This document shows, piece by piece, positions 1 to 40,096 of a stretch of 64,000 nucleotides of DNA. A model generated the notes under the pieces. The model was given only the letters and a program-made list of their open reading frames with translations, searched no databases and was not told the origin of the DNA. The DNA comes from Nemertoderma westbladi. Its lineage: Eukaryota; Animalia; Xenacoelomorpha. A program made the translations under genes and the position numbers. The stretch lies in contig JAUCBJ010009125.1 in NCBI GenBank assembly GCA_032718475.1, positions 51,002 through 115,001 on the forward strand. The letters are read 5' to 3'. Position 1 is the first letter of the stretch, and every line of letters starts with the position of its first letter.

Positions 1-456
1 AGATTATATTCCTATAAACCACCTGGCTTCGCATATTGAACGTGCGATTGGAAATAAGTTTGTGCTACCTTCCGTGGGTGGTAGATGTCGCGGTTATGTA
101 TTGGTGGGTGGGAAGGGTCGGGGGCGGGGGGGGGGGGGGGGTGGGGTGGGGTGGGGGTGCAGATTTAAAGGGCTGAACACGTACTGTCCCTCTTTTTTTG
201 ATTGATTGGCGGTGTGGTTAAATTTCTAAATTTTACTAATTTATAAAGTTAAATACTGATTTTGTGATACAGTCGCTCGATATTAATTTGTATCTCATAA
301 CTGGGCCTCGTGCTGCGCGAAGGCCCCACGAACGTGTATGCTAAGCTCGCTTACTTTCGTCGCTCGCCCCACACAAACTTCCACAATATGGGAGGTAATT
401 CATTTCCTTTTCTTTGTAACTAATATTGTATATAATTATTTTATAATTATAAAATA

Positions 457-684
457 CTAGCAGGCAATACCCGAGGCATGTTACCCGGTATTTCCCGCTA
501 CCGGCATAGGCCTACTGGCGTACTGGTACCGGTATAGGCCTACTGACGTACCGGTACCCAGTACCGGTACCGAACGTGAATTAAACTTTTCGAAAAGTGG
601 CCTATAACGACCGCTGGTTAATGTTATACACACATGCCAAGTTCCAGCGCAATCCCTCTGCCCGTTTTGGAGGAGTTCGAACAC

Positions 685-715
<31 letters not shown>

Positions 716-737
716 ATTTGATTTTTATAGGTATAGA
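457..737 (-). mobile_element. Short non-autonomous Helitron-like element
   Basis: Minus strand begins A|TCTATACCTATA and ends CTAG|T; internal (GA)n/GACA microsatellite. Confidence 0.6.
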
Positions 738-881
738 TTACCACTAGCCATATGTAGTATAATATTTGGTGTTGATACTTGGGGCAGAGTATAAAATACG
801 ATAATATTGTTAATATTACCACTAGCCATATGTAGTATAATATTTGGTGTTGATACTTGGGGCAGAGTATAAATACGATAA
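737..881. repeat. Two-copy direct repeat (~77 bp period)
   Basis: attaccactagccatatgtagtataatatttggtgttgatacttggggcagagtataaa at ~737 and ~815. Confidence 0.85.
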
Positions 882-941
882 CAATGTTTTCTGATTAAAA
901 TTGTTGATTAATGAATTTGGCTTTTCGGGGTTTAATTATAG

Positions 942-3900
942 TGGGCAGTATTAATTACTACTCCACCATACGTGTTCCTAACCAACAGATGTCGAGTGTG
1001 GCTACGTTTGGCCTTAATGAAGAAAACATTATCAAGTTTACTTCGAGTTCTTGTGGAAAATGTTAGCCTAACTAAGAGACTGTACAACGAATGGGCTGTG
1101 TTACTCCACGAAGAAGGTATGCACACATCATATTCTAATTATCACGTCCTTTTGTTAAATTAATTATGTCATATGCCTAGGCCACATCAATCTTCACAAG
1201 ATAGAAAGCTTAGCCAATTCCAATATATTATTTATTATCCAAATAATTCGGCCCAATATTGAAGAGCAATCTTCGGGCGATAAAGATGAATAATAACAAC
1301 TTAATTAAGTCATTGTGGAGCTGATTATGAACAAAAATGAAACTGTAAGCTGTGCTATTAACTCTTGGCGTAGTGGTGAAATCCGTTGCCATGGAATCAC
1401 ATCTCTCCGAATAACGTGGGTTCGATCCCCGCGTGATGGCATGGGCAGTTTTAGTTTCGGCACGAATACTGGTGGATGCGCCATGGTGACTAAATGGGTA
1501 CAGGAGTTACATATCGCTGGGGAGTATAGTTCTGGGGGGACCGCACTGGAAATAAGTCCTCAAACCTTGTGCGTATTACCTACCTGGCCTAACGGCCGAA
1601 TAATGTTTGCCTCCAAATATGTTTCTCAATAAGGTTGGAGTGAGAAAAAACGGTGACTCCCGCTAATTATCAATTAAAGGAAAGCTGTTATTAGCAACAC
1701 AGCTTGCTTACACAGCAAAACACAGCCAATTTTCAATTCGATTTCCGGTTTATTTTCGCGCGCACACGGGTTTCGACCATATCCTAGTGTTTAAACAATA
1801 AGAGCACCCCGCCGTTCGATCCAAGGTAGGAGAGCACCTTGTTACCCGTTATTCAGTGTAGGACACTTTGTTATCCGTTATTCAATGTAGAGCACCTTGT
1901 TACTCGTTATTCAGCGTAGGACACCTTGTAACCCGTCGTTTAGTGTAGGGCACCTTGTTACCAGTCATTCAATGTCGGGCACCTTGTTACCAGTCATTCA
2001 GTGTAGGGCACCTTGTTACCCGTTATTCAGTGTAGGGCACCTTGTTACCCGTTATTCAATGTAGGGCACCTTGTTACCAGTCATTCAGTGTATGGCACCT
2101 TGTTACCCGTTATTCAGCGTAGGACACCTTGTTACCTATTATTCAGTGTAGGGCACCTTGTTACCCGTTATTCAATGTAGAGCACCTTGTTACTCGTTAT
2201 TCAGTGTATGGCACCTTGTTACCCGTTATTCAGTGTAGGGCACCTTGTTACCCGTTATTCAGTGTAGGGCACCTTGTTACCTGTTATTCAATGTACGGCA
2301 CCTTGTTACCAGTCATTCAGTGTAGGGCACCTTGTTACCCGTTATTCAATGTAGAGCACCTTGTTACTCGTTATTCAGTGTATGGCACCTTGTTACCCGT
2401 TATTCAGTGTAGGACACCTTTTTACCCGTTATTCAGTGTATGACACCTTGTTACCCGTTATTCAGTGTAGGGCACCTTGTTACCCGTTATTCAATGTAGA
2501 GCACCTTGTTACTCGTTATTCAGTGTATGGCACCTTGTTACCCGTTATTCAGTGTAGGGCACCTTGTTACCCGTTATTCAGTGTAGGGCACCTTGTTACC
2601 TGTTATTCAATGTACGGCACCTTGTTACCAGTCATTCAGTGTAGGGCACCTTGTTACCCGTTATTCAGTGTAGGGCACCTTGTTACCTGTTATTCAATGT
2701 ACGGCACCTTGTTACCAGTCATTCAGTGTAGGGCACCTTGTTACCCGTTATTCAGTGTATGACACCTTGTTACCAGTCATTCAGTGTAGGGCACCTTGTT
2801 ACCTGTTATTCAATGTACGGCACCTTGTTACCAGTCATTCAGTGTAGGACACCTTGTTACCCGTTATTCAGTGTAGGGCACCTTGTTACCCGATATTCAG
2901 TGTAGGGCACCTTGTTACCTGTTATTCAATGTACGGCACCTTGTTACCAGTCATTCAGTGTAGGACACCTTGTTACCAGTCATTCAGTGTAGGGCACCTT
3001 GTTACCCGATATTCAGTGTAGGGCACCTTGTTACCCGTTATTCAGTGTAGGGCACCTTGTTACCTGTTATTCAATGTACGGCACCTTGTTACCAGTCATT
3101 CAGTGTAGGGCACCTTGTTACCCGTTATTCAGTGTATGACACCTTGTTACCAGTCATTCAGTGTAGGGCACCTTTTTACCTGTTATTCAATGTACGGCAC
3201 CTTGTTACCAGTCATTCAGTGCAGGGCACCTTGTTACCCGTTATTAAGTGTAGGGCACCTTGTAACCCGTCGTTCAGTGTAGGGAACCTTGTTACCCGTT
3301 ATTCAGTGTAGGGAACCTTGTTACCCGTTATTCAGTGTAGGGCACCTTGTTACCCGATATTCAGTGTAGGGCACCTTGTTACCCGTTATTCAGTGTATGA
3401 CACCTTGTTACCAGTCATTCAGTGTAGGGCACCTTTTTACCTGTTATTCAATGTACGGCACCTTGTTACCAGTCATTCAGTGCAGGGCACCTTGTTACCC
3501 GTTATTAAGTGTAGGGCACCTTGTAACCCGTCGTTCAGTGTAGGGAACCTTGTTACCCGTTATTCAGTGTAGGGAACCTTGTTACCCGTTATTCAGTGTA
3601 GGGAACCTTGTTACCCGTTATTCAGTGTAGGGCACCTTGTTACCCGATATTCAGTGTAGGGCACCTTGTTACCCGTTATTCAGTGTATGACACCTTGTTA
3701 CCCGTTATTCAGTGTAGGGCACCTTGTTACCCGTTATTCAGTGTATGACACCTTGTTACCCGTTATTCAGTGTAGGGCACCTTGTTACCCGTTATTCAGT
3801 GTATGACACCTTGTTACCCGTTATTCAGTGTAGGGCACCTTGTTACCCGTTATTCAGTGTAGGGCACCTTGTTACCCGTTATTCAGTGTATGACACCTTG

Positions 3901-6900
3901 TTACCCGTTATTCAGTGTAGGGCACCTTGTTACCCGTTATTCAGTGTAGGGCACCTTGTTACCCGTTATTCAGTGTAGGGCACCTTGTTACCCGTTATTC
4001 AGTGTAGGGCACCTTGTTACCCGATATTCAGTGTAGGGCACCTTGTTACCCGTTATTCAGTGTAGGGCACCTTGTTACCCGCTATTCAGTGTAGGGTACC
4101 TTGTTACCCGTTATTAAGTGTAGGGCACCTTGTTACCTGTTATTCAGGGTAGGGCACCTTGTTACCCGTTATTCGGTGTAGGGTACCTTGTTACCCGCTA
4201 TTCAGTGTAGGGCACCTTGTTGCCCGTTATTCAGTGTAGGGCACCTTGTTACCTGTTATTCAAGTGTTTCTAGCAGAACTTATTGTTAAGCCGCAACAAC
4301 GATGTTCTTATGAGAATAAACATACAACAAATAGAGCTTTTCCGATGTCCAAATAACTTATCAAATTACTTTCAACCTTCGCAGGTGAAATAATATCTGG
4401 TTTACTTGTCGGTCTTCACATAATCGACTGTGATCTCTGCCTTGACGACCCTTCTCTAGACGCACCTCCAGGCACTATAGACTTCGCCCTTTACCTTAAG
4501 GACGCAAACACGTTGCAGAAATCACTCCAGGTTAGTCACTTGTAACTCACATATCGAGTACATGTGGGGTGGGAGTTGTTGGTGGATGTGATAAAGTGCA
4601 CGTGCTTGGGGACTTCGCGCAGCACTAAGTCCAGATGAGCCTCTGCGTAGCAGTATAATCATTGAACCTTCCAAATTTCAGATGAATCTGGTGTCTTGTT
4701 TTATAATTATTATAGCTATTTCTAGGTTTCTTATCATTAGCACCGTCTAGTGGCCGACAGAGGTACTATCTATATAAATAAAGTCTGTCTGTGTATAGAA
4801 TTTCTCAACTTATTGACTACATATGTACCAAGTTTGTTTCCTTTTCATCAATGATTAGGGATTGGTAATGAATGTTGGGTGTTGGGAGGTCATTAGGACG
4901 TAAATCGCAGAAATACAATGAATTAACTTTGTAAGCATTAGAACTCCATGCTCCACAAATAACTTTAAGGTCAGCCATCCCAAACATGAATTTAAGAGGT
5001 GAAATTTGTTTTTGTCCAGTAGATATTAATGCGGAAGGATGCCATTAGGGTTCGAACCCGAAATAAAAATAACACGAGTTGGGCGGCACAGCGCTGGTTT
5101 GGGTACCATCGATGGACATTTTTCTACTGGACCAAAATCATAAATTATTTAACGAAAATTTTATATTGAACTTATATTTTGCGACCGTTTTTTCTAACAT
5201 GTATTACTGGTCCTGTTTTGATAAATGTATATTCTCTCTCACACGAATGTAAACAACTAAATCAATCAAACACACATTTTATTATCATATATCAAACTTG
5301 TAACGTTGCATTAGCAGCTAAAAATTACGGATTAATTGGTAATTGAAACTTTAATCTTGTCTTGTTTATTTGTTTAAGCAGGATGCGAGTATACGGTCGC
5401 AATCAGCCAACAATAACTCCAATCCAATGGAATGGGAAAATGAGTTGTTAGACCAGAACAATTACCTGCAGGAAGTCAACGAAAGGTTAAGAAAGAAATC
5501 CGTGGAACTTCAGCATAAACTCACGGCAATGGGGGAAGGGCACGCGGAAACCAAACGGTTACTGGCAGAGGCAAACAATGAGGTTATATCGTTACAAATC
5601 GATAACACAAGGTAAGTGATAGAGTGGGGAGGGGACATAATAATGTGAGGACAATGTGAGAACGATAAAATGAGGACATTAATGGGAGGGGACATTGTGG
5701 CAAGAGTGCTGCAATCATTAAGGTAGTGCGACACGAGTGGACAGCGTTTATTTGGTGTAACACGATAAAATTAATGTCGAGGCAGTGTGACACCGTTGCC
5801 CAGGTGGATAGAGAATCATCACTTACATCTTATTATAGTGAAATAATAAAAAGAAAAACTGGCTGTCATTTTCATTTAATGACCTACTAAAAAGTAAAAA
5901 GGACTATTTTATTCGATAAAAAAAAGTAAGCCGAAAACACCGCTTTTTTCACTCATTTTCAATTTAGCGAAATTCAACGATTCTATCCGAGTGGTTGAGT
6001 TTTACAAGAGTTGGCAGGTTTTTAGCACGAGCGAAGCGAAGTTCTGTTAAAATGCAAACGAGTGGAAATCTCAATACACGAGGGCAGAATAACTGAATTT
6101 TGCTAAAGAAAATGAGTGACAAGTGTTTTCCGTTACGTTTTTATATCAAATATATTGTTTTATTTGAAAAAAATATCACCAGCGTTACCATTATTTACGA
6201 CGATAATACTCTATTAATGCTGCCCACGCTTTCAGATAGATATCCTAAGATTTCTGAGTCAGTAGCTCCGAAAACATCGCGTCATCTTCGAGCACGTACG
6301 GATCGTCAATATTTAAGCCTACCACTAGGTCCGGTAATGCTAACCTACTGTGTACAAGTACCGGTACCGGTACTGTGTAAACGGAAGTTTGTTTGAGCTA
6401 GCTGTACAGTAAGCTAAAATCAGTTAAAAAATACTTTTTTTTAACTAATTTGCAGCAAAATTAGTTAAAAAAGAACTTTTTTCCAGAAAATTAGTGAAAA
6501 AATGTTAGATTAATTAACTCAATTTTAAAAATATTAGTGAGAATAAGAGCCTTTTTCAAATAAAAATCATATTCACTAAATTTTATAGGAAAATCTCAAC
6601 ACTTATTAATTAAAAATACATAAGGAACAGATACAGGTTACTGGGGCATGTTATTCTAACCAAAACAATAAACGAAAATAACATGTTACAATTTTATGGT
6701 TGTTAATAAAAAATACGTTTTTTTAGTGATAATAAAAATATTTTAGCGGAGATATAATTGAGTGAAAAAATTTATTGAAAATATTTAATTTAGTAGAAAA
6801 ACCAATTGTCTTAGTGACCAATATACAATTAAATCACAAAAATATATTGTACTAGTATATTTTACGTCTACATTAGATTACAGGATAAATGTACACAATT

Positions 6901-7954
6901 GGACAGCCTGTATTCACGAACTATTAAGGAAAATTTTTTCGATATGGAAATAGAGAAGGAAGCTTATCAGAGAAGCAAATCGGGGTTAGATGAGTTGTAC
7001 ATCAACTTGCGGAAACAACTAGACGAATCCAACAGCCAATGTGCCGAACTTAACAAGGAAATTAAACTACAGGTTAAATTATAGCCATAACAGAACCCTA
7101 GAAGCAGCTGCATCGAAATTCACAAAAGTTTTAAAAAACCCAACCCACCCCACACCAGGTCGAAAATCTATAATTGATCAAAAATAATTAATAGTCGATA
7201 ATAATCGATCGAATTTTTTTTTCATTTCCGATGAATTTTTCACTATATAAAATATCAAACTCACTTTTTTTAAATTTCTGAATAAATCTGCATAAAGTGT
7301 TATAATAACCTGCATATTATGTACTGTAATCACTCATACTCCATTCATTATTTAATGAAAAAAACCGCTCGCTTCAGCACAATGCGAAGTAAAGGGCCGC
7401 TTTACACAGTAAATTTTCGAAATATTAAGCATTTATTTACGTATTACAACAATGAACATTTTTCAAATAGTAACCAATAAATAATTTAACAGATTTGTAT
7501 TACAATTACATTGGTAATAATCGAAAATGATCGATAAATCGGTACTACACCAAATTTCAAGACACTTGGCCTCTTATTCTAGTTATTTCTCCATTTGTGA
7601 AATAGTAAAATAGGTAAAACTATTGAATTAATTTAAATTGGTGATTCTTTATTTACATAACGTTAAAGAAATTCTGTATTCAATAGACCAAATTATGTTT
7701 TGTAGAAAACATTAAGAAAGGAAATGGAATCAGCGATAAACACGATGGAAGATGAACTCAGAGAAAGAGGCGACACGGTAAAGAGTTTGAGACGACAGAT
7801 GGACGATCTGAAGGCCATTAACGTAGGCATGTACAACAAACTGCAGGAGAGTGAAAGAAGGCTGAAAGAGAAAAGCTACAAAGTGGACCAATTACAAAAC
7901 GCGAATAGAGCGGAATGGAAGACCTGCGACCGAACAAATCCCGGCGGTAGATGA
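942..7954 (+). CDS. RUFY-family (RUN domain + coiled coil) gene, 3' exons; 5' part outside window
   Basis: Exons ~942 or 989..1116 (acceptor ambiguous), 4385..4530, 5382..5611, 6877..7072, 7706..7954 join in phase (1,0,2,0) with GT-AG. Peptides RVWLRLALMKK, EEGEIISGLLVGLHIIDCDLCL..IDFALYLKD, LLDQNNYLQEVN, LRRQMDDLKAIN match RUFY1/2/3. Stop at 7952-7954 followed by AATAAA signals. Confidence 0.85.
1362..1650 (+). mobile_element. tRNA-derived SINE
   Basis: A box TGGCGTAGTGG, B box GGTTCGATCC, A-rich end; related head on minus strand at ~54920-55010. Confidence 0.7.
1832..4261. repeat. 29-bp minisatellite (~80+ copies) in RUFY intron
   Basis: Unit cagtgtagggcaccttgttacccgttatt; source of the repetitive ORFs at 2129-3978. 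Confidence 0.97.
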
Positions 7955-8815: not shown

Positions 8816-8954
8816 GATTTTTCATAAGAATATTAAATTTATATCAAAACATTGACAAAAATTTATTATGACAAACAAACAAGCAGCTTTTTTGAATACA
8901 AAACTAAATAATGTGAACATTGTAAACAATTATTAATTAAGAACATTTTCTAAC

Positions 8955-11434
8955 CTGAATTATTTTGGACAGAATAAAAGCTCCTTTAGAGGAAATCCCA
9001 GAACATGTTAGATCCAACCAGCTGATACACATCGTGTTCTTTATACCCCATGATAAAACTGTAAAATAGATTTAATTTAGTTATCTAACATATTTATTTT
9101 ATACGGAATAAATAATAAATTAATTGTTGCGGCTGCGGGGTGACGGTGAATTAAATATAAATAGTGTAATAGGACAGCATGATAAAGCTCTCCATAGCGA
9201 AAAATAAAAAACAGACCCTATTGGGGTTCGAACCAGGTACCTAGGTTTCAAACTTCCGGTTATCATCAGCCGGGTGAGTGTGTCTATGACAACAGAGCTA
9301 CCAGGAAGGATGAAGAAGTTATTCGCCTAGTGGGCTGTACTTTCCTTTGAGTGGTTGTAAAAATGGAAAAAACCATAACGAATAAATTCTTCAGCCGTCC
9401 TGTTAGCGGTAGCTCAGTTGTCATAGACACACACACACACCAGGCTGAAGATAACCGGAAGTTTGAAACCTAGGTACCGGGTTCGAGCACCAATGAGGTC
9501 GGTTGATATTTTCCGCTATGAAGATCATATTCATATTGTTCTATAATACATCGAATATATAAATAATAGATACAATTAAGTAAATATTGCATATATATAC
9601 TCCTCGGTCTAGCGAGGAAAGAAAATAAACGTAGAAAGTTTGAGAATTAATAATCAGGGTTGCCATTCTAGTTCAGTTTTAATGACATTTCCCTGACTTT
9701 TTGAAAAAATTCCCTGACTGCCTGCTAGCAGGTTCACAGCATTTTTATAAAATATAGAGTATATTATTTTATTGACCGCTTTATTATATTCCAAACAAAG
9801 TTAAGCGATTCGAGTGCGCCTATATATTTAGTGATGTGAGGAAATCGAATGGCGAGCGAATCGATCACAGAACATTTTACAGGTTTTCGCTTGTTTATAA
9901 AACTTGTCCTGTACATTCACTGACGTTTACCTGATTTGTCCATTTTTTACAAGAATTCCCTGACAAAAAATGAAATTCGCTGACTATTCCAGGTATTCCA
10001 GGTGAGTGGCAACCCTGATAATAGAAAGATAATTGATCAGATGACGCGAAAACTGCAATAGTTTGTAAATATAATTGCTAGATTTTATTAAGAATGGTTG
10101 TAAATATATTAGGTGTATAATTAATGGAGATTCAAAATCTTCAAGTTTTTCTCTATCAAAACAAAGTTCAATATATTTAGTTAGCGATATATTCAATATA
10201 TTAAATGAAATGACTTGATGACTTACCCTCTAAGCCTTTGTCGCGGATGTCTGTAAATGCGAGTGACAATGTAGTTAGTGAGGTTGACTCCTTCAGACCT
10301 TGAGCTAAAATCTGGAAATAAATACGGTGAATTGGATAAACGGACCAGTTGATAAATGTAATAATTAATATTAATATAACCCAATAACCGATGCACTGAT
10401 TGGTGTGATTAGGAACTCAATATAAGGTACAAACAAACCTTCAAGTCTGTGTTTCTGAGAGACAATCCCTCGAGTTCTAGAACCTTTAAGGACGAATTAA
10501 TCAGCAAACAATCCCGGAGACTGGAGCAGAGATTCTCGGCAACTAATCGATCGCGAACGGAAGGACAACGGGGTTTCAGTTTAATCGATTTACTTCCTAT
10601 TAAAAATAATAATAAAGAGTCAGGAGTAATATAGTTCGGATGATACTAGGTGTGTGTGTACGGTAATCAGAATTCCGGCCGGAAGGGAATTACACCCCAA
10701 GTCTATCAACCTACATACATACATAGAACACATACATGGGGAAGGGGGGGGGGGGGGGGGGTGTTGGGATTGGTGACGGTTTTTCCCATTTAATCTACCT
10801 TTGGTTGTATCTCCTGGCTCGTAGTAACTACGCAACGCTATCACTCTCAATCCCCTGTTGACCTTCACGCAGTTGAGAAAAGGTGACCAGTCGTCCATTT
10901 TCAGTCGGTCTGAATTTAGATCGACCACACGTTCCTGTACAAATAGATAGTATGTAACTGGTAGCTATAAAAAAATTCTGGAATTAGGAAAGGTGCCGTT
11001 AAGTAAGTTTCACGTTTTCACGCACAATTTACGAAATTAACAAACATTCTACATATTATGGTCCTAAGATATGTCTACCCTGACTCTTCTTTCCTCTAAA
11101 AAAGCAAATAGTAAATTAAATTCTGAATTAGGTTCGGATTATCAAACTTATCAACGTAGCAGTTTGTTTTGCAGTCTGCAGATAATTTGCACATTATATG
11201 CTACATTGGTCTCCAGTACACCTGGCTGTTACACCTGGCTGGCTACGACCGGCTGTTACACTCTTAATGGGTTGACACTTTCGATCTAGGATCCGTCAGA
11301 CCTACCTGGACGTGAGCTTTGACAGCAGGTACGGGAACTGAGTCCTGGAGAAGACACAAGTTGTCATAGTGAGAAGCGAAGTCGTATGCCCCTCTCTGTC
11401 GCTCCGCTACTGACTGGATGAGGCTTGTACCCAT
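8955..11434 (-). CDS. CEP78: Centrosomal protein 78, first five coding exons (LRR region)
   Basis: Exons 11434-11306, 10934-10799, 10596-10439, 10311-10227, 9058-8955 in phase with GT-AG: MGTSLIQSVAERQRGAYDFASHYDNLCLLQDSVPVPAV.., DLNSDRLKMDDWSPFL, LKVLELEGLSLRNTDLKILAQGLKES.., matching the CEP78 N-terminus. No later exon found. Confidence 0.85.
9232..9275 (-). ncRNA. Minimal type I hammerhead ribozyme motif between tRNA-like A and B boxes
   Basis: acccgg CTGATGA taac-cggaa-gttt GAAAC ctag GTA cctggt; palindromic stem III ACCTAGGT; predicted cleavage after 9238. Stem II lacks the usual G-C closing pair. Confidence 0.7.
9439..9482 (+). ncRNA. Minimal type I hammerhead ribozyme motif between tRNA-like A and B boxes
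   Basis: accagg CTGAAGA taac-cggaa-gttt GAAAC ctag GTA ccgggt; A box TAGCTCAGTTG upstream, GGTTCGAGC overlapping the 3' strand, TTTT at 9509-9512. Confidence 0.7.
9655..10017. mobile_element. hAT-like MITE
   Basis: TIR CAGGGTTGCCA..TGGCAACCCTG; 5-bp flanking repeat ATAAT; internal ttccctgac repeats. Confidence 0.8.
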
Positions 11435-19235: not shown

Positions 19236-20287
19236 TAATCAAAACAATTAGTCAATAAACATTAACTCAATAACATAATAGGCTGATAGGTTACAGTTTA
19301 CAGTAGTCTTATTTTTGCCATACGAAAATACCACAGGTATGGCAGTATGGGTATGACGTATGAATGAACTATACAGCTATAACTCAACTACGCTACCGCG
19401 GTATACACGCTAAGGCAGTAAGGCTACCGCAAAGCTATACCACTACCGCAAAAAGTAAACCGCAAAAAGTAACTACTAATGTCTGACTGTACGTGTGCGA
19501 TCCCTGTTTATAATACATATAATAATTAATTTGATCATTAAAATAATGTTGCATTGTAATTATGTAATATATATGTACTGATACGGGATGCAGTTTTGAT
19601 TTAAATACCGATATACAGTATGGCAGCATGGGTACACTTGGAGTTGTACTAAAGTCCAATATTGGACTTTGGAGTCCAAAATTGGACTTGAAGTCTAAAA
19701 TTGGACTTGAAGTCCAATTTTTCACTTCTCACCGACTGACAGTATTAATGTTTAATGTTTATGTTTAATGTAAATAGGGCGTGAGGAAGCAAATGCTTTT
19801 AAAGCCCGTACACACAATAAATAAAATTAACGGAGACATATGTAAAATATATATATGAAATTGTACTGTACACATAAATAAAATATTGACTGGGTTAAAA
19901 CACAGGGTTTTAGGTAAAACTGAACGTAATCGGGACCGCACAAAGTACATAGTATGATAATAGGCTAGGAAAAAAAGCGTTAGTTCAAATTAGTTCAAAT
20001 TATTAACATGAATACCAGAATACCGTCTTAGGTTTTGATTATTGATAGTAAGAATGTGTTGGCAAGCTGTATTTTTCGAGGTGTTTGCGCCAATAAAAGA
20101 TAAGTTATTTTCGGTAAAATAAACTTATCATTCGAGGTTAAGACCCCTAGATCCCTTCCTATAATAAATGTATAATAACAAACACCTCGAAAAATACAGC
20201 TTGCCAACACATTCTTACTATCAATAATCAAAAATCAGGGGCTAATAAAATGGCAGCTGTCTTTGAAATTAATTCTCCATATCTCAA

Positions 20288-20457
20288 GAACCTGTGGCCT
20301 AGTGGTTGTAGTCTCGGCTTCCGCCTCGAGGTCCCAGGTTCGAATCCGACACCACGCTGATGAGACCCAGTAAGGTCGAAACGCGTACGTGGTTTGGAGA
20401 GATATGAGATATTAATTTCAAGAAAAATTACGCGATTCCTAAATTTGTACACTACCC

Positions 20458-20498: not shown

Positions 20499-20802
20499 CG
20501 CATGTGATGGGATTAGTCCTACAATTGCGCCAATAAAAGATAAGTTATTTTCGGTAAAATAAACTTATCATTCGAGGTTAAGACCCCTAGATCCCTTCCT
20601 ATAATAAATGTCTTAGGTTTTGGACTATGCAACTGCACTACCGGTACTCACAACGTTTCACTGTTTTAATTAGGCCCCTAAATATTTCAATGTAAAATTT
20701 CCCATTATTTACTGTAAATGCTGCTTGGTAGGTACCCTAAACTTTTAAATTGTGAACTAATTTTTAAATTAAATTATATTTTAACGCTATTTTAATTGAA
20801 TA

Positions 20803-20844
20803 TACCGCTGAAGACGCCCGCGAGGGTGAAATGGCCATACGGTA
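20803..20844 (+). ncRNA. Minimal type I hammerhead ribozyme (Penelope-like)
   Basis: taccg CTGAAGA c gccc-gcga-gggt GAAA tggcca TA cggta; GNRA-capped stem II, palindromic stem III ATGGCCAT. Confidence 0.8.
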
Positions 20845-21171
20845 AATAATTAACTTCATTTTTTATATATCCACGTGGTGAAAGACCCTTCCTTGCCTTT
20901 ATTAATCCTGTAATTAAGAATACCGTCTGACCGTATTACAGTCTGACAGTATTATGTTATTTCAGTATTTCTGTATTTAGAGAGACTGTCAGACTGCTGA
21001 ACAGTGACGGTGCTGGTGCAGTGGTGCCCTTACTGCCTTACCTTGTACCTGTTACCCTATCTGCCTATAATAAATAGGCCTACCCTGTACCCTCAGACCC
21101 TATCAGCCTATTTATGCTTTATCCAGTTATCTCGCTGTCAATCTATATATATAAATATCATGTGATGTGTG

Positions 21172-38363: not shown

Positions 38364-38947
38364 TACCGACTCATTCACCAACCCGCCCGGCCGAACGGCT
38401 ACCCATTCAAGCCTACCTGTACCAGGGTACCGGTACCGACTTCTGTCTGAAGGTACCGGGCTGCCTGTATATTATTATCATTATGCAGAGGCAGACTCCA
38501 ACTTAACGCATAAATTATCGAACGATCCCACACACTACGACATTCATTCTCGGTCAGTCGGTGGGGTTGACGTTTACAACTCCAACCGTGTTCATTAGAA
38601 TGAACTTTGTGAGTTCCTTCGATTCCCAACTCGGATCGCCTCACATAATCGTGAAGTTGCGGACAATACCTAGATCGCATGGGCGTCCGAACATTCCGCC
38701 CAATGTTAAATTGTGTTCTAAACAAGATATTACAGCGGTGCAACCAGCAACATGTTCCGACAACTCTCTGTCGCTCAGATCAAAAATATTGCCTGTAGTT
38801 AGGGTGAGATTTTCGTTGCCTTTGACCGCCGTTTCCGGTAGACTATCGGGCGGACGCACGATCGTTCGCACCTTAAACCCCCGACCCAGCAGTTGTTCAA
38901 CCACTAGTCGCCCAGTGGGAGTGGCCCCGGGTGACTATCCAACCGTA
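38364..38947 (-). pseudogene. Inverted, frameshifted partial copy of the neighbouring Rossmann-fold gene
   Basis: Aligns to 39294-39918; start codon and first half of the Gly-rich loop deleted, frameshifts, 3' end missing. Confidence 0.9.
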
Positions 38948-39346
38948 TCAGTAGTACTATTGCAAGACCTATTTTGCGATAGCCGTACCGGTACTAAATT
39001 AGATTAGATGTACTAAAAAAATAGTTCAACAATCAGCTGATTCAGGTGAGGGTAGTTGTATCCGGTTGCCAAGAGATATGTTATTAATAAACAAAAACAG
39101 CTGTTAGAATTAAATGTTGTTACAGAACAGGCTGCAGTAAGCAAGCAGTATGTGTGAATTCGGTTTGATTGTTATCTGCTTTATATTTACCGTTTAGGGC
39201 CTGCGTATGTTCTCATGCTACTCTTTAGCAACTGATACGGTTTTACAGTTCATACATATATTTATATTACCAGTATTATCAGTTCCTTCATACTACGGTT
39301 GGATGGTCATTAATGTTTCTGCACAGAACGTTTAACAAATAAGAGA

Positions 39347-40096
39347 ATGCCCGGGGTTGCTTTAATTGTGGGTGCGACCGGGGCCACTGGACGACAAGTG
39401 GTTGAACAACTGCTGGGTCGGGGGTTTAAGGTGCGAGCGATCGTGCGTTCGCCCGATAGTCTACCGGAAACGGTCAAAGCCAACGAAAATCTCACCCTAA
39501 CGACGGCCAATACATTGGATTTGAGCGACAGAGAGTTGTCGGAACATGTTGCTGGATGCACAGCTGTAATATCTTGTTTAGGGCACAGAGGAACATTCAA
39601 CGGTTTGTTCGGACGCCCACGCGATCTCGTGTTGACTGCAACTTCACGATTATGCGAGGCGATCCGAGTTGGTGAATCGAAGGAACGCACAAAGTTCATT
39701 CTAATGAACACGGTTTTAGTTGAAAACGTTAACCCAAACGAGAATGAACGTCGTAGTGTGTGGGATCGTTCGATTATTTATGCGTTAAGTTGGATTCTGC
39801 CTCCGCATAATGATAACATACAGGCAGCCCAGTACCTTCAGACAGGAGTAGGCATCGGTCCCGATAGGCCTGAATGGGTGGCCGTTCGGCCTGGCGGGTT
39901 GGTGAATGAGTCGGTATCGGAATACAGTCTACATCCATCGCCGATAACAAATTCGATATTTACCGCAGGAAAAGTTTCCCGGGCCAACGTGGCCCACTTC
40001 ATGTGCGAGTTGGTAGAGAATAGGGATGTATGGGATAAGTGGAAGGGCAGAATGCCGGTGATACTGAACGCTAAACAAGGAAATACTAAAAACTAG
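39347..40096 (+). CDS. NAD(P)-binding Rossmann-fold oxidoreductase (atypical SDR / flavin-reductase-like), intronless
   Basis: 249-aa intact ORF, VGATGATG nucleotide-binding loop, AVISCLG, WVAVRPGGL, VSRANVAHFM. Confidence 0.88.
   Translation: MPGVALIVGATGATGRQVVEQLLGRGFKVRAIVRSPDSLPETVKANENLTLTTANTLDLSDRELSEHVAGCTAVISCLGHRGTFNGLFGRPRDLVLTATSRLCEAIRVGESKERTKFILMNTVLVENVNPNENERRSVWDRSIIYALSWILPPHNDNIQAAQYLQTGVGIGPDRPEWVAVRPGGLVNESVSEYSLHPSPITNSIFTAGKVSRANVAHFMCELVENRDVWDKWKGRMPVILNAKQGNTKN

What the first reader, a model, noticed from the sequence alone, without database searches (positions are those of the whole stretch)
9155..9560. Head-to-head pair of tRNA-promoter cassettes each carrying a hammerhead ribozyme between the A and B boxes
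Seen: inside CEP78 intron 4 is a ~400-bp imperfect palindrome (loop ~9326-9378). Each arm reads outward: A box-like TAGCTC(A/T)GTTG, CA-rich spacer, hammerhead core CTGANGA..GAAAC-ctag-GTA, B box GGTTCGA(A/G)C, then a T run. The outer arms are visibly diverged, but the two 44-nt ribozymes differ only at the free N7 core position and one stem I pair. Known: minimal type I hammerheads with palindromic stem III occur in Penelope-like elements and retrozymes, and Schistosoma SMalpha combines Pol III boxes with a hammerhead. Inference: a ~100-nt self-cleaving Pol III RNA in which the ribozyme replaces the anticodon arm, arranged as a divergent pair; I do not recognise this layout. Caveat: stem II is only 3 bp and lacks the canonical G10.1-C11.1 pair.
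Basis: partly seen in the sequence, partly recalled or inferred. Interest (0 to 1): 0.9.

Follow-up and report, generated by a model that had tools for sequence, protein, structure and literature searches.

The report
Ribozyme nested inside a SINE promoter
Two mirror-image copies of an abundant short repeat sit in an intron of an animal gene, each with a predicted self-cutting hammerhead RNA placed between the two halves of a tRNA-type promoter, an unusual layout, and the pair was likely pasted in by the enzyme of a Penelope-type jumping gene.

Summary
Each arm reads A box, type I hammerhead with palindromic stem III, B box, T run. A general hammerhead descriptor finds 4 hits in the window against 0.005 per shuffle. 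The locus is not unique: public contigs show a dispersed family of roughly hundreds of copies, with A-box-like sequence upstream in other copies and other head-to-head junctions. The pair carries the known Penelope insertion footprint: inverted arms, a 37-nt one-sided tail and a candidate 10-bp target duplication. The mirror layout is therefore ordinary. What I did not find in ten literature searches is the nesting: stem I overlaps the B box and the predicted cut falls between the boxes. One correction: the stem I difference is not compensatory. Each arm is mismatched with itself and perfectly matched with the other arm, whereas about 90% of family depth has the self-matched pair. This suggests a swap between two self-matched parent copies, in DNA or, more boldly, by ribozyme cutting and re-joining in an RNA dimer. 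Transcription, cleavage and the mobilising enzyme are untested. Verdict: new variant of a known kind.

The parts
9108..9117 (.). Candidate target-site duplication, left copy (10 bp, AT only)
   Evidence: Longest repeat shared by the two flanks; 3 of 200 shuffles and 2 of 92 AT-rich window pairs reach 10 nt or more
9118..9154 (-). One-sided 37-nt tail beyond the end of arm homology (Penelope-type tail, inferred)
   Evidence: Arm alignment; also matched by a few other contigs, e.g. an X4 piece 9112-9206, and depth 113-178 against 39-46 in the next bin outward in X1-X3
9155..9325 (-). Left arm: full-length copy of the repeat, reading outward
   Evidence: X1 contig 8900-9265 with 0 differences
9290..9300 (-). 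A box, 7 of 9; the conserved A is changed at 9294 relative to the family majority
9232..9275 (-). Type I hammerhead motif; predicted cut after 9238; stem I has a C.U mismatch in cis (9235 departs from the family majority)
9224..9234 (-). B box, 10 of 10, overlapping the 3' strand of stem I
9200..9211 (-). T6-A-T5 run, candidate Pol III terminator
   Evidence: sequence
9326..9378 (.). Non-palindromic spacer between the 5' ends of the arms
   Evidence: part of it is joined to truncated arms in other contigs
9379..9558 (+). Right arm: full-length copy of the repeat, reading outward
9410..9420 (+). A box, 8 of 9
9439..9482 (+). Type I hammerhead motif; predicted cut after 9476; stem I has an A.G mismatch in cis (9442 departs from the family majority)
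9480..9490 (+). B box, 9 of 10; conserved C changed at 9489 relative to the family majority; overlaps stem I
9509..9512 (+). T4 run (T5 in the family majority, site 9513)
9559..9568 (.). Candidate target-site duplication, right copy, abutting the end of arm homology
9059..10226 (-). Host intron between coding exons 4 and 5 of a CEP78-like LRR gene (name recalled)
   Evidence: GT/AG sites, tblastn of unnamed homologues, a 1116-nt X4 contig that covers only 8955-9059

Best explanation
The locus is a head-to-head double insertion of an abundant, non-coding repeat of about 180 bp that carries a hammerhead motif between a tRNA-type A box and B box, and it was likely copied into this intron by the reverse transcriptase-endonuclease of a Penelope-like element. 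Shown: the repeat family, the order of parts, the inverted arms and the one-sided tail; the target duplication is a candidate. Inferred mechanism: RNA polymerase III reads intact copies from the internal boxes. Most transcripts would stop at the T run, but read-through or host-driven transcripts include the 3' end and tail that a Penelope protein would need. The protein nicks AT-rich DNA and copies RNA onto both DNA ends, which gives two outward-facing arms with varied 5' truncation. The ribozyme would cut only as a dimer held by the palindromic stem III. Because the cut lies between the boxes, cut RNA cannot found a copy with a whole promoter, so uncut RNA is the likely template and cutting would act as a brake or processing step. 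This copy looks aged: each arm has one damaged promoter box and one stem I change. On the host pre-mRNA strand the antisense arm is made first and is predicted to mask the sense ribozyme, which would spare the intron from cleavage.
For: Motif far beyond chance. Family: summed contig depth at 9489 is 52,000-109,000 against 25-34 for single-copy flank in X1-X3, i.e. 49-141 copies with full correction for overlapping contigs and 1,500-4,400 with none; 5 contigs at site 9499 in X3 average 67 times single-copy depth. Loose ends at 9281 (17, 26 and 20 contigs; consensus agreement only 0.54-0.56) run into A-box-like sequence after a shorter spacer. Of 15 joints shown (22 in all), 11 concern this element; 6 join left-arm to right-arm sequence with different truncation points and one more (9256/9326) joins a truncated arm to a full arm in inverted order. 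Shared 3' end near 9544/9168 with unrelated flanks (loose ends of 7 and 9 contigs in X3). Tail 37 nt and 10-bp duplication match the 30-40 bp one-sided tail and inverted 5'-truncated copy of PLE insertions (PMC8557442 passages) and AT-rich targets (PMC11167929). Opposite-strand hammerhead pairs 100-700 bp apart are reported for truncated PLEs (PMC4209133). Hammerhead mutants do not alter PLE insertion in vitro and uncut RNA is the main substrate. Stem III self-duplex -11.4 kcal/mol, monomer fold +0.3. Pre-mRNA strand: mean probability 0.95 that ribozyme bases pair with the antisense arm.
Against: No autonomous Penelope partner was seen: no genome is held, and the two reverse transcriptase fragments scanned in the window give only a generic RVT_1 match (LINE type by my reading). 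The target duplication is AT-only and its null rate is 1.5-2%. A-to-B spacing is long (71 and 67 nt from first A-box base to B-box G53; boxes are usually 30-40 bp apart). The putative terminator lies inside the mobile unit. Stem II has 3 bp and lacks the G10.1-C11.1 pair typical of PLE minimal hammerheads. In free folding neither arm adopts the hammerhead shape, and in the + arm the leader can pair with the core (-16.3 kcal/mol). Rfam gives no hammerhead, tRNA or vault match at E<=10, while the hammerhead at 20341-20408 is detected. Depth is not a copy number, and tables 3, 5, 7 and 8 were cut.
Confidence: 0.64

Rival explanations
1. The arms are 5'-truncated terminal repeats (pLTRs) of an autonomous Penelope-like element, and the A/B boxes are either part of that terminal repeat or incidental.
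For: Same insertion footprint; depth falls steeply toward the 5' end (X1: 65,000 at the core, 302 at 9410-9443, 89 at 9376-9409), as 5' truncation would give; pLTRs carry minimal hammerheads (PMC4209133).
Against: Both arms here and one other copy (joint 9256/9326) start at the same 5' boundary; loose ends show A-box-like sequence with a shorter spacer, which explains part of the depth drop. The family majority fits the B-box consensus 10 of 10. An A-box-like 8-mer occurs in only 1.5% of random 45-nt windows. No ORF adjoins the arms (part of its output cut).
Confidence: 0.17
2. The locus is a selected pair of divergent Pol III genes whose RNAs work only together as an obligate heterodimeric ribozyme.
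For: Per active site the cross pairings score -17.8 and -19.3 kcal/mol against -13.1 for either self pairing. Two random single changes would be cross-complementary about 0.2-0.8% of the time (post hoc). The ribozyme is better kept than the flanks (p=0.08).
Against: Each arm has a damaged promoter box relative to the family; the family majority is self-matched (87-89% at 9442, 92-93% at 9235 in X1-X3); whole-transcript cofolding shows no heterodimer preference (-15.4 against -13.6 and -15.6 kcal/mol); hundreds of family copies could supply partners.
Confidence: 0.08
3. A non-LTR retrozyme family that lives as tandem arrays and circular RNAs, with this locus an inverted derivative; circularisation at the cut would rebuild the A-hammerhead-B order.
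For: Size (about 180 bp) and type I hammerhead with palindromic stem III fit metazoan retrozymes (PMC7229834 passages); retrozymes are proposed to be non-autonomous PLE derivatives (bioRxiv 10.64898/2026.07.22.740005).
Against: None of the 15 joints shown (of 22) is a head-to-tail 'goes back' joint; the element's ends lie away from the cut site; retrozymes are said to lack promoters (PMC7761336 passage).
Confidence: 0.07
4. A host small-RNA gene family of vault-RNA type (type 2 promoter, variable middle, ends paired before a T run) that has spread as pseudogenes.
For: Leader and 3' end can pair in the + arm (-13.6 kcal/mol); vault RNA genes have boxes A and B (PMC7904556 passages).
Against: No Rfam vault match at E<=10; the pairing is weak in the - arm (-4.3); the repeat runs past the T run and shows a PLE footprint.
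Confidence: 0.04

Closest known systems
Sm-alpha / Sj-alpha SINE-like hammerhead retroposons of Schistosoma (seen through the review PMC6765202 and PMC8490949, passages; the 1998 primary paper was not held)
   Same: Non-coding repeat joining a Pol III promoter to a type I hammerhead
   Different: Described as a promoter followed by the ribozyme, in tandem multimers cut to unit length. Here the ribozyme lies between the boxes, stem I overlaps the B box, and the copies seen are dispersed or head-to-head.
Insertion units and pLTR minimal hammerheads of endonuclease-positive Penelope-like elements (PMC4209133, PMC8557442, PMC11167929)
   Same: Inverted 5'-truncated arm, one-sided 30-40 bp tail, AT-rich target, dimer-type hammerhead with palindromic stem III some 80-120 nt from the 3' end
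   Different: No ORF seen; tRNA-type internal promoter; stem II of 3 bp with U.U at 10.1-11.1 where PLE minimal hammerheads have a long helix II with G10.1-C11.1.
Metazoan non-LTR retrozymes (PMC7229834; bioRxiv 10.64898/2026.07.22.740005)
   Same: Short non-autonomous unit with a type I hammerhead, linked to PLEs
   Different: Defined by tandem repeats and circular RNAs and said to lack promoters; no tandem joint was shown here.
tRNA-derived SINEs (type 2 promoter; PMC7279448)
   Same: A and B boxes fit the published consensus; high copy number
   Different: No poly(A) or LINE-like tail; a T run inside the unit; wider box spacing filled by a ribozyme; inverted double insertions.

Membership tests
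Type I hammerhead ribozyme | Core CUGANGA, GAAA and UH in order around three stems | tested here: met
Type I hammerhead ribozyme | Intact stem I | tested here: inconclusive
   5 of 6 pairs within each arm, 6 of 6 across arms; family majority self-matched
Type I hammerhead ribozyme | G10.1-C11.1 closing pair of stem II | tested here: not met
   U.U here; reported as a natural variant in PMC3088659. No Rfam hammerhead match at E<=10
Type I hammerhead ribozyme | Site-specific self-cleavage | not testable with these tools
   needs an in vitro assay or raw RNA reads
tRNA-derived SINE | Internal A and B boxes | tested here: met
   A 8/9 and 7/9, B 9/10 and 10/10 against the consensus; family majority restores both damaged sites
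tRNA-derived SINE | Dispersed, many copies, non-coding | tested here: met
   bounds about 50 to 4,400
tRNA-derived SINE | A-rich or simple-repeat 3' tail of LINE type | tested here: not met
   arm ends show no such tail
tRNA-derived SINE | Transcription by Pol III | not testable with these tools
   only contigs were available
Penelope-type insertion | Inverted, variably 5'-truncated arms | tested here: met
   this locus plus 7 of the 11 element joints shown
Penelope-type insertion | 30-40 bp tail on one side only | tested here: met
   37 nt, 9118-9154; shared with a few contigs
Penelope-type insertion | Target-site duplication | tested here: inconclusive
   10 bp, AT only; 3 of 200 and 2 of 92 nulls reach it
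Penelope-type insertion | Autonomous PLE partner sharing the 3' end | not testable with these tools
   no genome held
Non-LTR retrozyme | Tandem head-to-tail units bounded by the ribozyme | tested here: inconclusive
   not at this locus; none among 15 joints shown of 22
Non-LTR retrozyme | Circular RNA | not testable with these tools
   no raw RNA reads
Sm-alpha type retroposon | Whole promoter upstream of the hammerhead | tested here: not met
   B box lies after the cut site and overlaps stem I
Vault RNA | Match to the Rfam vault model | tested here: not met

The most novel reading that the evidence does not exclude
The locus is a fossil of ribozyme-driven RNA recombination. Two self-matched family RNAs (one A-U, one C-G at the variable stem I pair) cut themselves, swapped partners through the palindromic stem III and were re-joined, leaving two reciprocal chimeras locked in a perfectly paired heterodimer. 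A dimeric Penelope enzyme then copied that RNA dimer onto the two ends of one DNA break. The hammerhead dimer would thus be the clamp that makes Penelope-type head-to-head insertions, in a SINE whose promoter is split by its own ribozyme.
Probability: 0.13. Interest if true: 0.88.

Novelty: new variant of a known kind. Interest (0 to 1): 0.56.

Why it matters
SINEs are normally mobilised by LINEs. A tRNA-promoter repeat with a Penelope footprint would be a compact natural substrate for working out what Penelope enzymes recognise. The same bases serving as DNA promoter (B box) and RNA helix (stem I), with the cut between the boxes, gives a direct way to test what hammerheads do in these elements, which the papers read here call unclear: cut RNA cannot found an active copy, so selection on the ribozyme must have another cause. 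The cross-matched stem I in an inverted pair makes one specific question testable genome-wide: whether RNA dimers held by the ribozyme template the two arms of head-to-head insertions.

Tried and rejected
No genome held for the window, so no copy-by-copy alignment or covariation test was possible. ARAGORN found no tRNA gene in the window. Rfam: nothing at gathering score in the window; only unrelated weak matches at the locus. Folding of single arms is no better than shuffles (z -0.55 to 0.73). No further family copy in the window by BLASTN or nhmmer. The exact core was absent from metagenome contigs. A degenerate hammerhead-plus-B-box pattern gave 0 matches in viral contigs, 13 in metagenome and 5 in prokaryote contigs; none of the 18 has an A-box match or a tRNA gene, only 1 has a palindromic stem III, and stem I is broken in most (L001 reaches 5 of 6), so I rejected all 18 as chance. 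No RNA holder listed. Assembly artefact for the cross-matched stem I: an X1 contig with 0 differences links 9235 to N7 at 9265 on the left arm, so the left arm is as assembled between those sites; the right arm and site 9272 are not bridged by any listed piece. No run covers 9580-9647; a hole proves nothing. The joint 9238/9480 was set aside as one copy fitting each arm in part. One junction (9419/9477 in X1 and X2, 9421/9476 in X3) ends at the predicted cut, but the other truncation points do not, so I do not count it as evidence of cleavage. The host taxon was not resolved: GMP synthase is at most 63% identical to any listed relative. The gene name could not be obtained from a tool. The bacterial promoter scan is irrelevant here. 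An origin of the core from a tRNA anticodon loop (recalled likeness) was considered; no anticodon stem remains, so it is speculation. Ten paper searches showed no hammerhead between A and B boxes; Lunse 2017 and Ferbeyre 1998 were not held, and Repbase/Dfam could not be searched.

Full report
Observation. A general type I hammerhead descriptor finds both arms and two other motifs in the window; 199 of 200 shuffled windows have none. Against the type 2 promoter consensus printed in PMC7279448 (passages) the A boxes match 8 of 9 and 7 of 9 specified positions and the B boxes 9 of 10 and 10 of 10. The first three bases of each B box are the last three of the stem I 3' strand, and the predicted cut lies four bases upstream of the B box. 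The stretch around the cut aligns by eye with the variable-loop and T-arm region of another tRNA-like head in the window at 20323-20347, so the ribozyme's 3' half appears to be built from tRNA-derived sequence (inference). The element lies in the intron between coding exons 4 and 5 of a minus-strand LRR gene; CEP78 is my recalled name for it.

It is a repeat family. No genome is held, so I laid public contigs from four runs (three samples at most; one may be the source of the window) on 8900-9900. Single-copy flank has depth 25-34 in X1-X3; the core and 3' part have 50,000-150,000. Overlapping contigs inflate this sum, so the bounds are 49-141 copies with full correction and 1,500-4,400 with none; five contigs at one variant site average 67 times single-copy depth. 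Hundreds is my estimate. Among the 40 best-supported variant rows shown (112 more hidden), none falls in the catalytic core except N7. The family majority differs from this locus at the damaged B-box base (9489), the damaged A-box base (9294) and both stem I mismatches (9442, 9235). Loose ends show A-box-like sequence upstream in other copies with a shorter spacer, though their consensus agreement is low. So A box, hammerhead, B box is the family's design, and these two copies are somewhat decayed.

The mirror layout is a Penelope-type footprint. Arm homology ends at 9558 on the right, directly before a 10-bp sequence repeated at 9108-9117 on the left; the left arm alone carries 37 more bases. 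The duplication is AT-only and is reached by 3 of 200 shuffles and 2 of 92 comparable window pairs, so it is a candidate. Of 11 joints shown for this element, 7 are other inverted arrangements with different truncation points. Inverted 5'-truncated copies and a 30-40 bp one-sided tail are the described signature of PLE insertions (PMC8557442, passages). Opposite-strand hammerhead pairs 100-700 bp apart are reported for truncated PLEs (PMC4209133, parts 1-2 of 4). The Anolis PLE protein cuts and extends both DNA strands at AT-rich sites, is predicted to be a dimer, starts reverse transcription at two sites that bound the tail, and uses uncut RNA (PMC11167929, parts 1-2 of 4). No autonomous partner could be sought.

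The ribozyme. The monomer fold is unstable (+0.3 kcal/mol) and the palindromic stem III forms an 8-bp duplex between molecules (-11.4), so activity would need a dimer, as described for PLE hammerheads (PMC6765202, passages). Stem II is short and closes with U.U, a natural variant said to be the best-tolerated mismatch (PMC3088659, passages). Against activity: free folding does not give the hammerhead shape, Rfam does not recognise it, and only one of nine Xenopus retrozyme dimers cut in vitro (bioRxiv 10.64898/2026.07.22.740005, parts 1-3 of 5). On the host pre-mRNA strand the antisense arm comes first and pairs with the sense ribozyme with mean probability 0.95, which would protect the intron.

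The cross-matched stem I. Each arm departs from the family majority at one non-N7 site of 43, and the two changes are on opposite sides of the same pair in different arms and are complementary. Cross sites score -17.8 and -19.3 kcal/mol against -13.1 for self sites. For two random changes the chance is 0.2-0.8%, computed after the fact. Four readings, with my rough weights: (a) the arms came from two self-matched parents and a later DNA inversion or conversion within the 29-bp identical core swapped halves, 0.45; (b) coincidence, 0.3; (c) cut, partner swap and ligation in an RNA dimer that then templated both arms, 0.15; (d) selection for a heterodimer, 0.1. Readings (a) and (c) predict the same sequence here and need a self-matched A-U variant in the family. 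Non-majority letters at both sites exceed single-copy depth in X1-X3, but their identity and linkage could not be read, and the finer variant table for one arm was not obtained. Whole-transcript cofolding shows no heterodimer preference, and each arm has a promoter lesion, which counts against (d).

Expression. No listed run is on record as RNA. X4 holds a 1116-nt contig that covers only 8955-9059 and has zero depth in the flanking unique intron bins, as a spliced-transcript assembly would; family contigs are also present in it, one covering 9408-9544. This is a weak hint that family sequence occurs in RNA; it shows no strand, start, level or polymerase.

Comparison and verdict. Sm-alpha has a promoter followed by the hammerhead (review passages; primary paper not held). 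Retrozymes are tandem and described as lacking promoters (passages). tRNA-promoter LTR elements exist (PMC10886601, passages) but have no ribozyme in the passages seen. Ten searches showed no hammerhead between A and B boxes; subscription papers, supplements and Repbase/Dfam were not seen and may hold such a family. Unchecked notes from this scan describe tRNA-headed, hammerhead-tailed head-to-head elements in other animals; they are leads only, and none states the nested order. The pair is ordinary for its class; the nested promoter-ribozyme and the cross-matched stem I are the new, testable parts. New variant of a known kind, interest 0.56.

Noticed in passing
window 20263-20421 (+): A second, unrelated element: tRNA-like head with A and B boxes followed by a canonical type I hammerhead (Rfam HH9, E 0.00024, below gathering score), all enclosed by inverted terminal repeats of about 23 bp that fold into a closing stem. 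This is the Sm-alpha order, inside a MITE-like frame.
   Followed up: partly
window 20802-20845 (+): A further type I hammerhead motif with G-C rich stem II and palindromic stem III, in AT-rich DNA, with no B box match nearby.
   Followed up: no
window 9387-9395 and 9443-9451 (+): The leader of the + arm is an exact 9-nt complement of its own catalytic core and can alternatively pair with the 3' end before the T run (-16.3 and -13.6 kcal/mol); weak in the - arm. A possible on/off folding switch, or chance.
   Followed up: partly
window 9461-9465 and 9510-9515 (+): Loop II could pair with five bases at the end of the T run in both arms (one wobble in the - arm), a possible pseudoknot; seen by eye only.
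   Followed up: no
window 1365-1435 (+): Another tRNA-like head with A and B box matches at the start of a probable SINE in an intron.
   Followed up: no
window 964-7951 (+) and 8955-11422 (-): A RUN-domain/coiled-coil gene (recalled likeness to RUFY) converges on the CEP78-like gene; tblastn found no clear CEP78-like exons beyond exon 5 (about residue 200 of 730), so the rest of that gene is diverged, displaced or missing here.
   Followed up: no
window 9650-10022: A separate repeat with 19-bp inverted ends (9650-9668/10004-10022) and high contig depth in the same intron, probably a MITE.
   Followed up: no
window 1840-4260: Long tandem array of a short unit of about 21 bp in an intron.
   Followed up: no
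window 38400-40093: An intronless NAD(P)-binding (NAD_binding_10) ORF at 39314-40093 with diverged copies nearby in both orientations.
   Followed up: no
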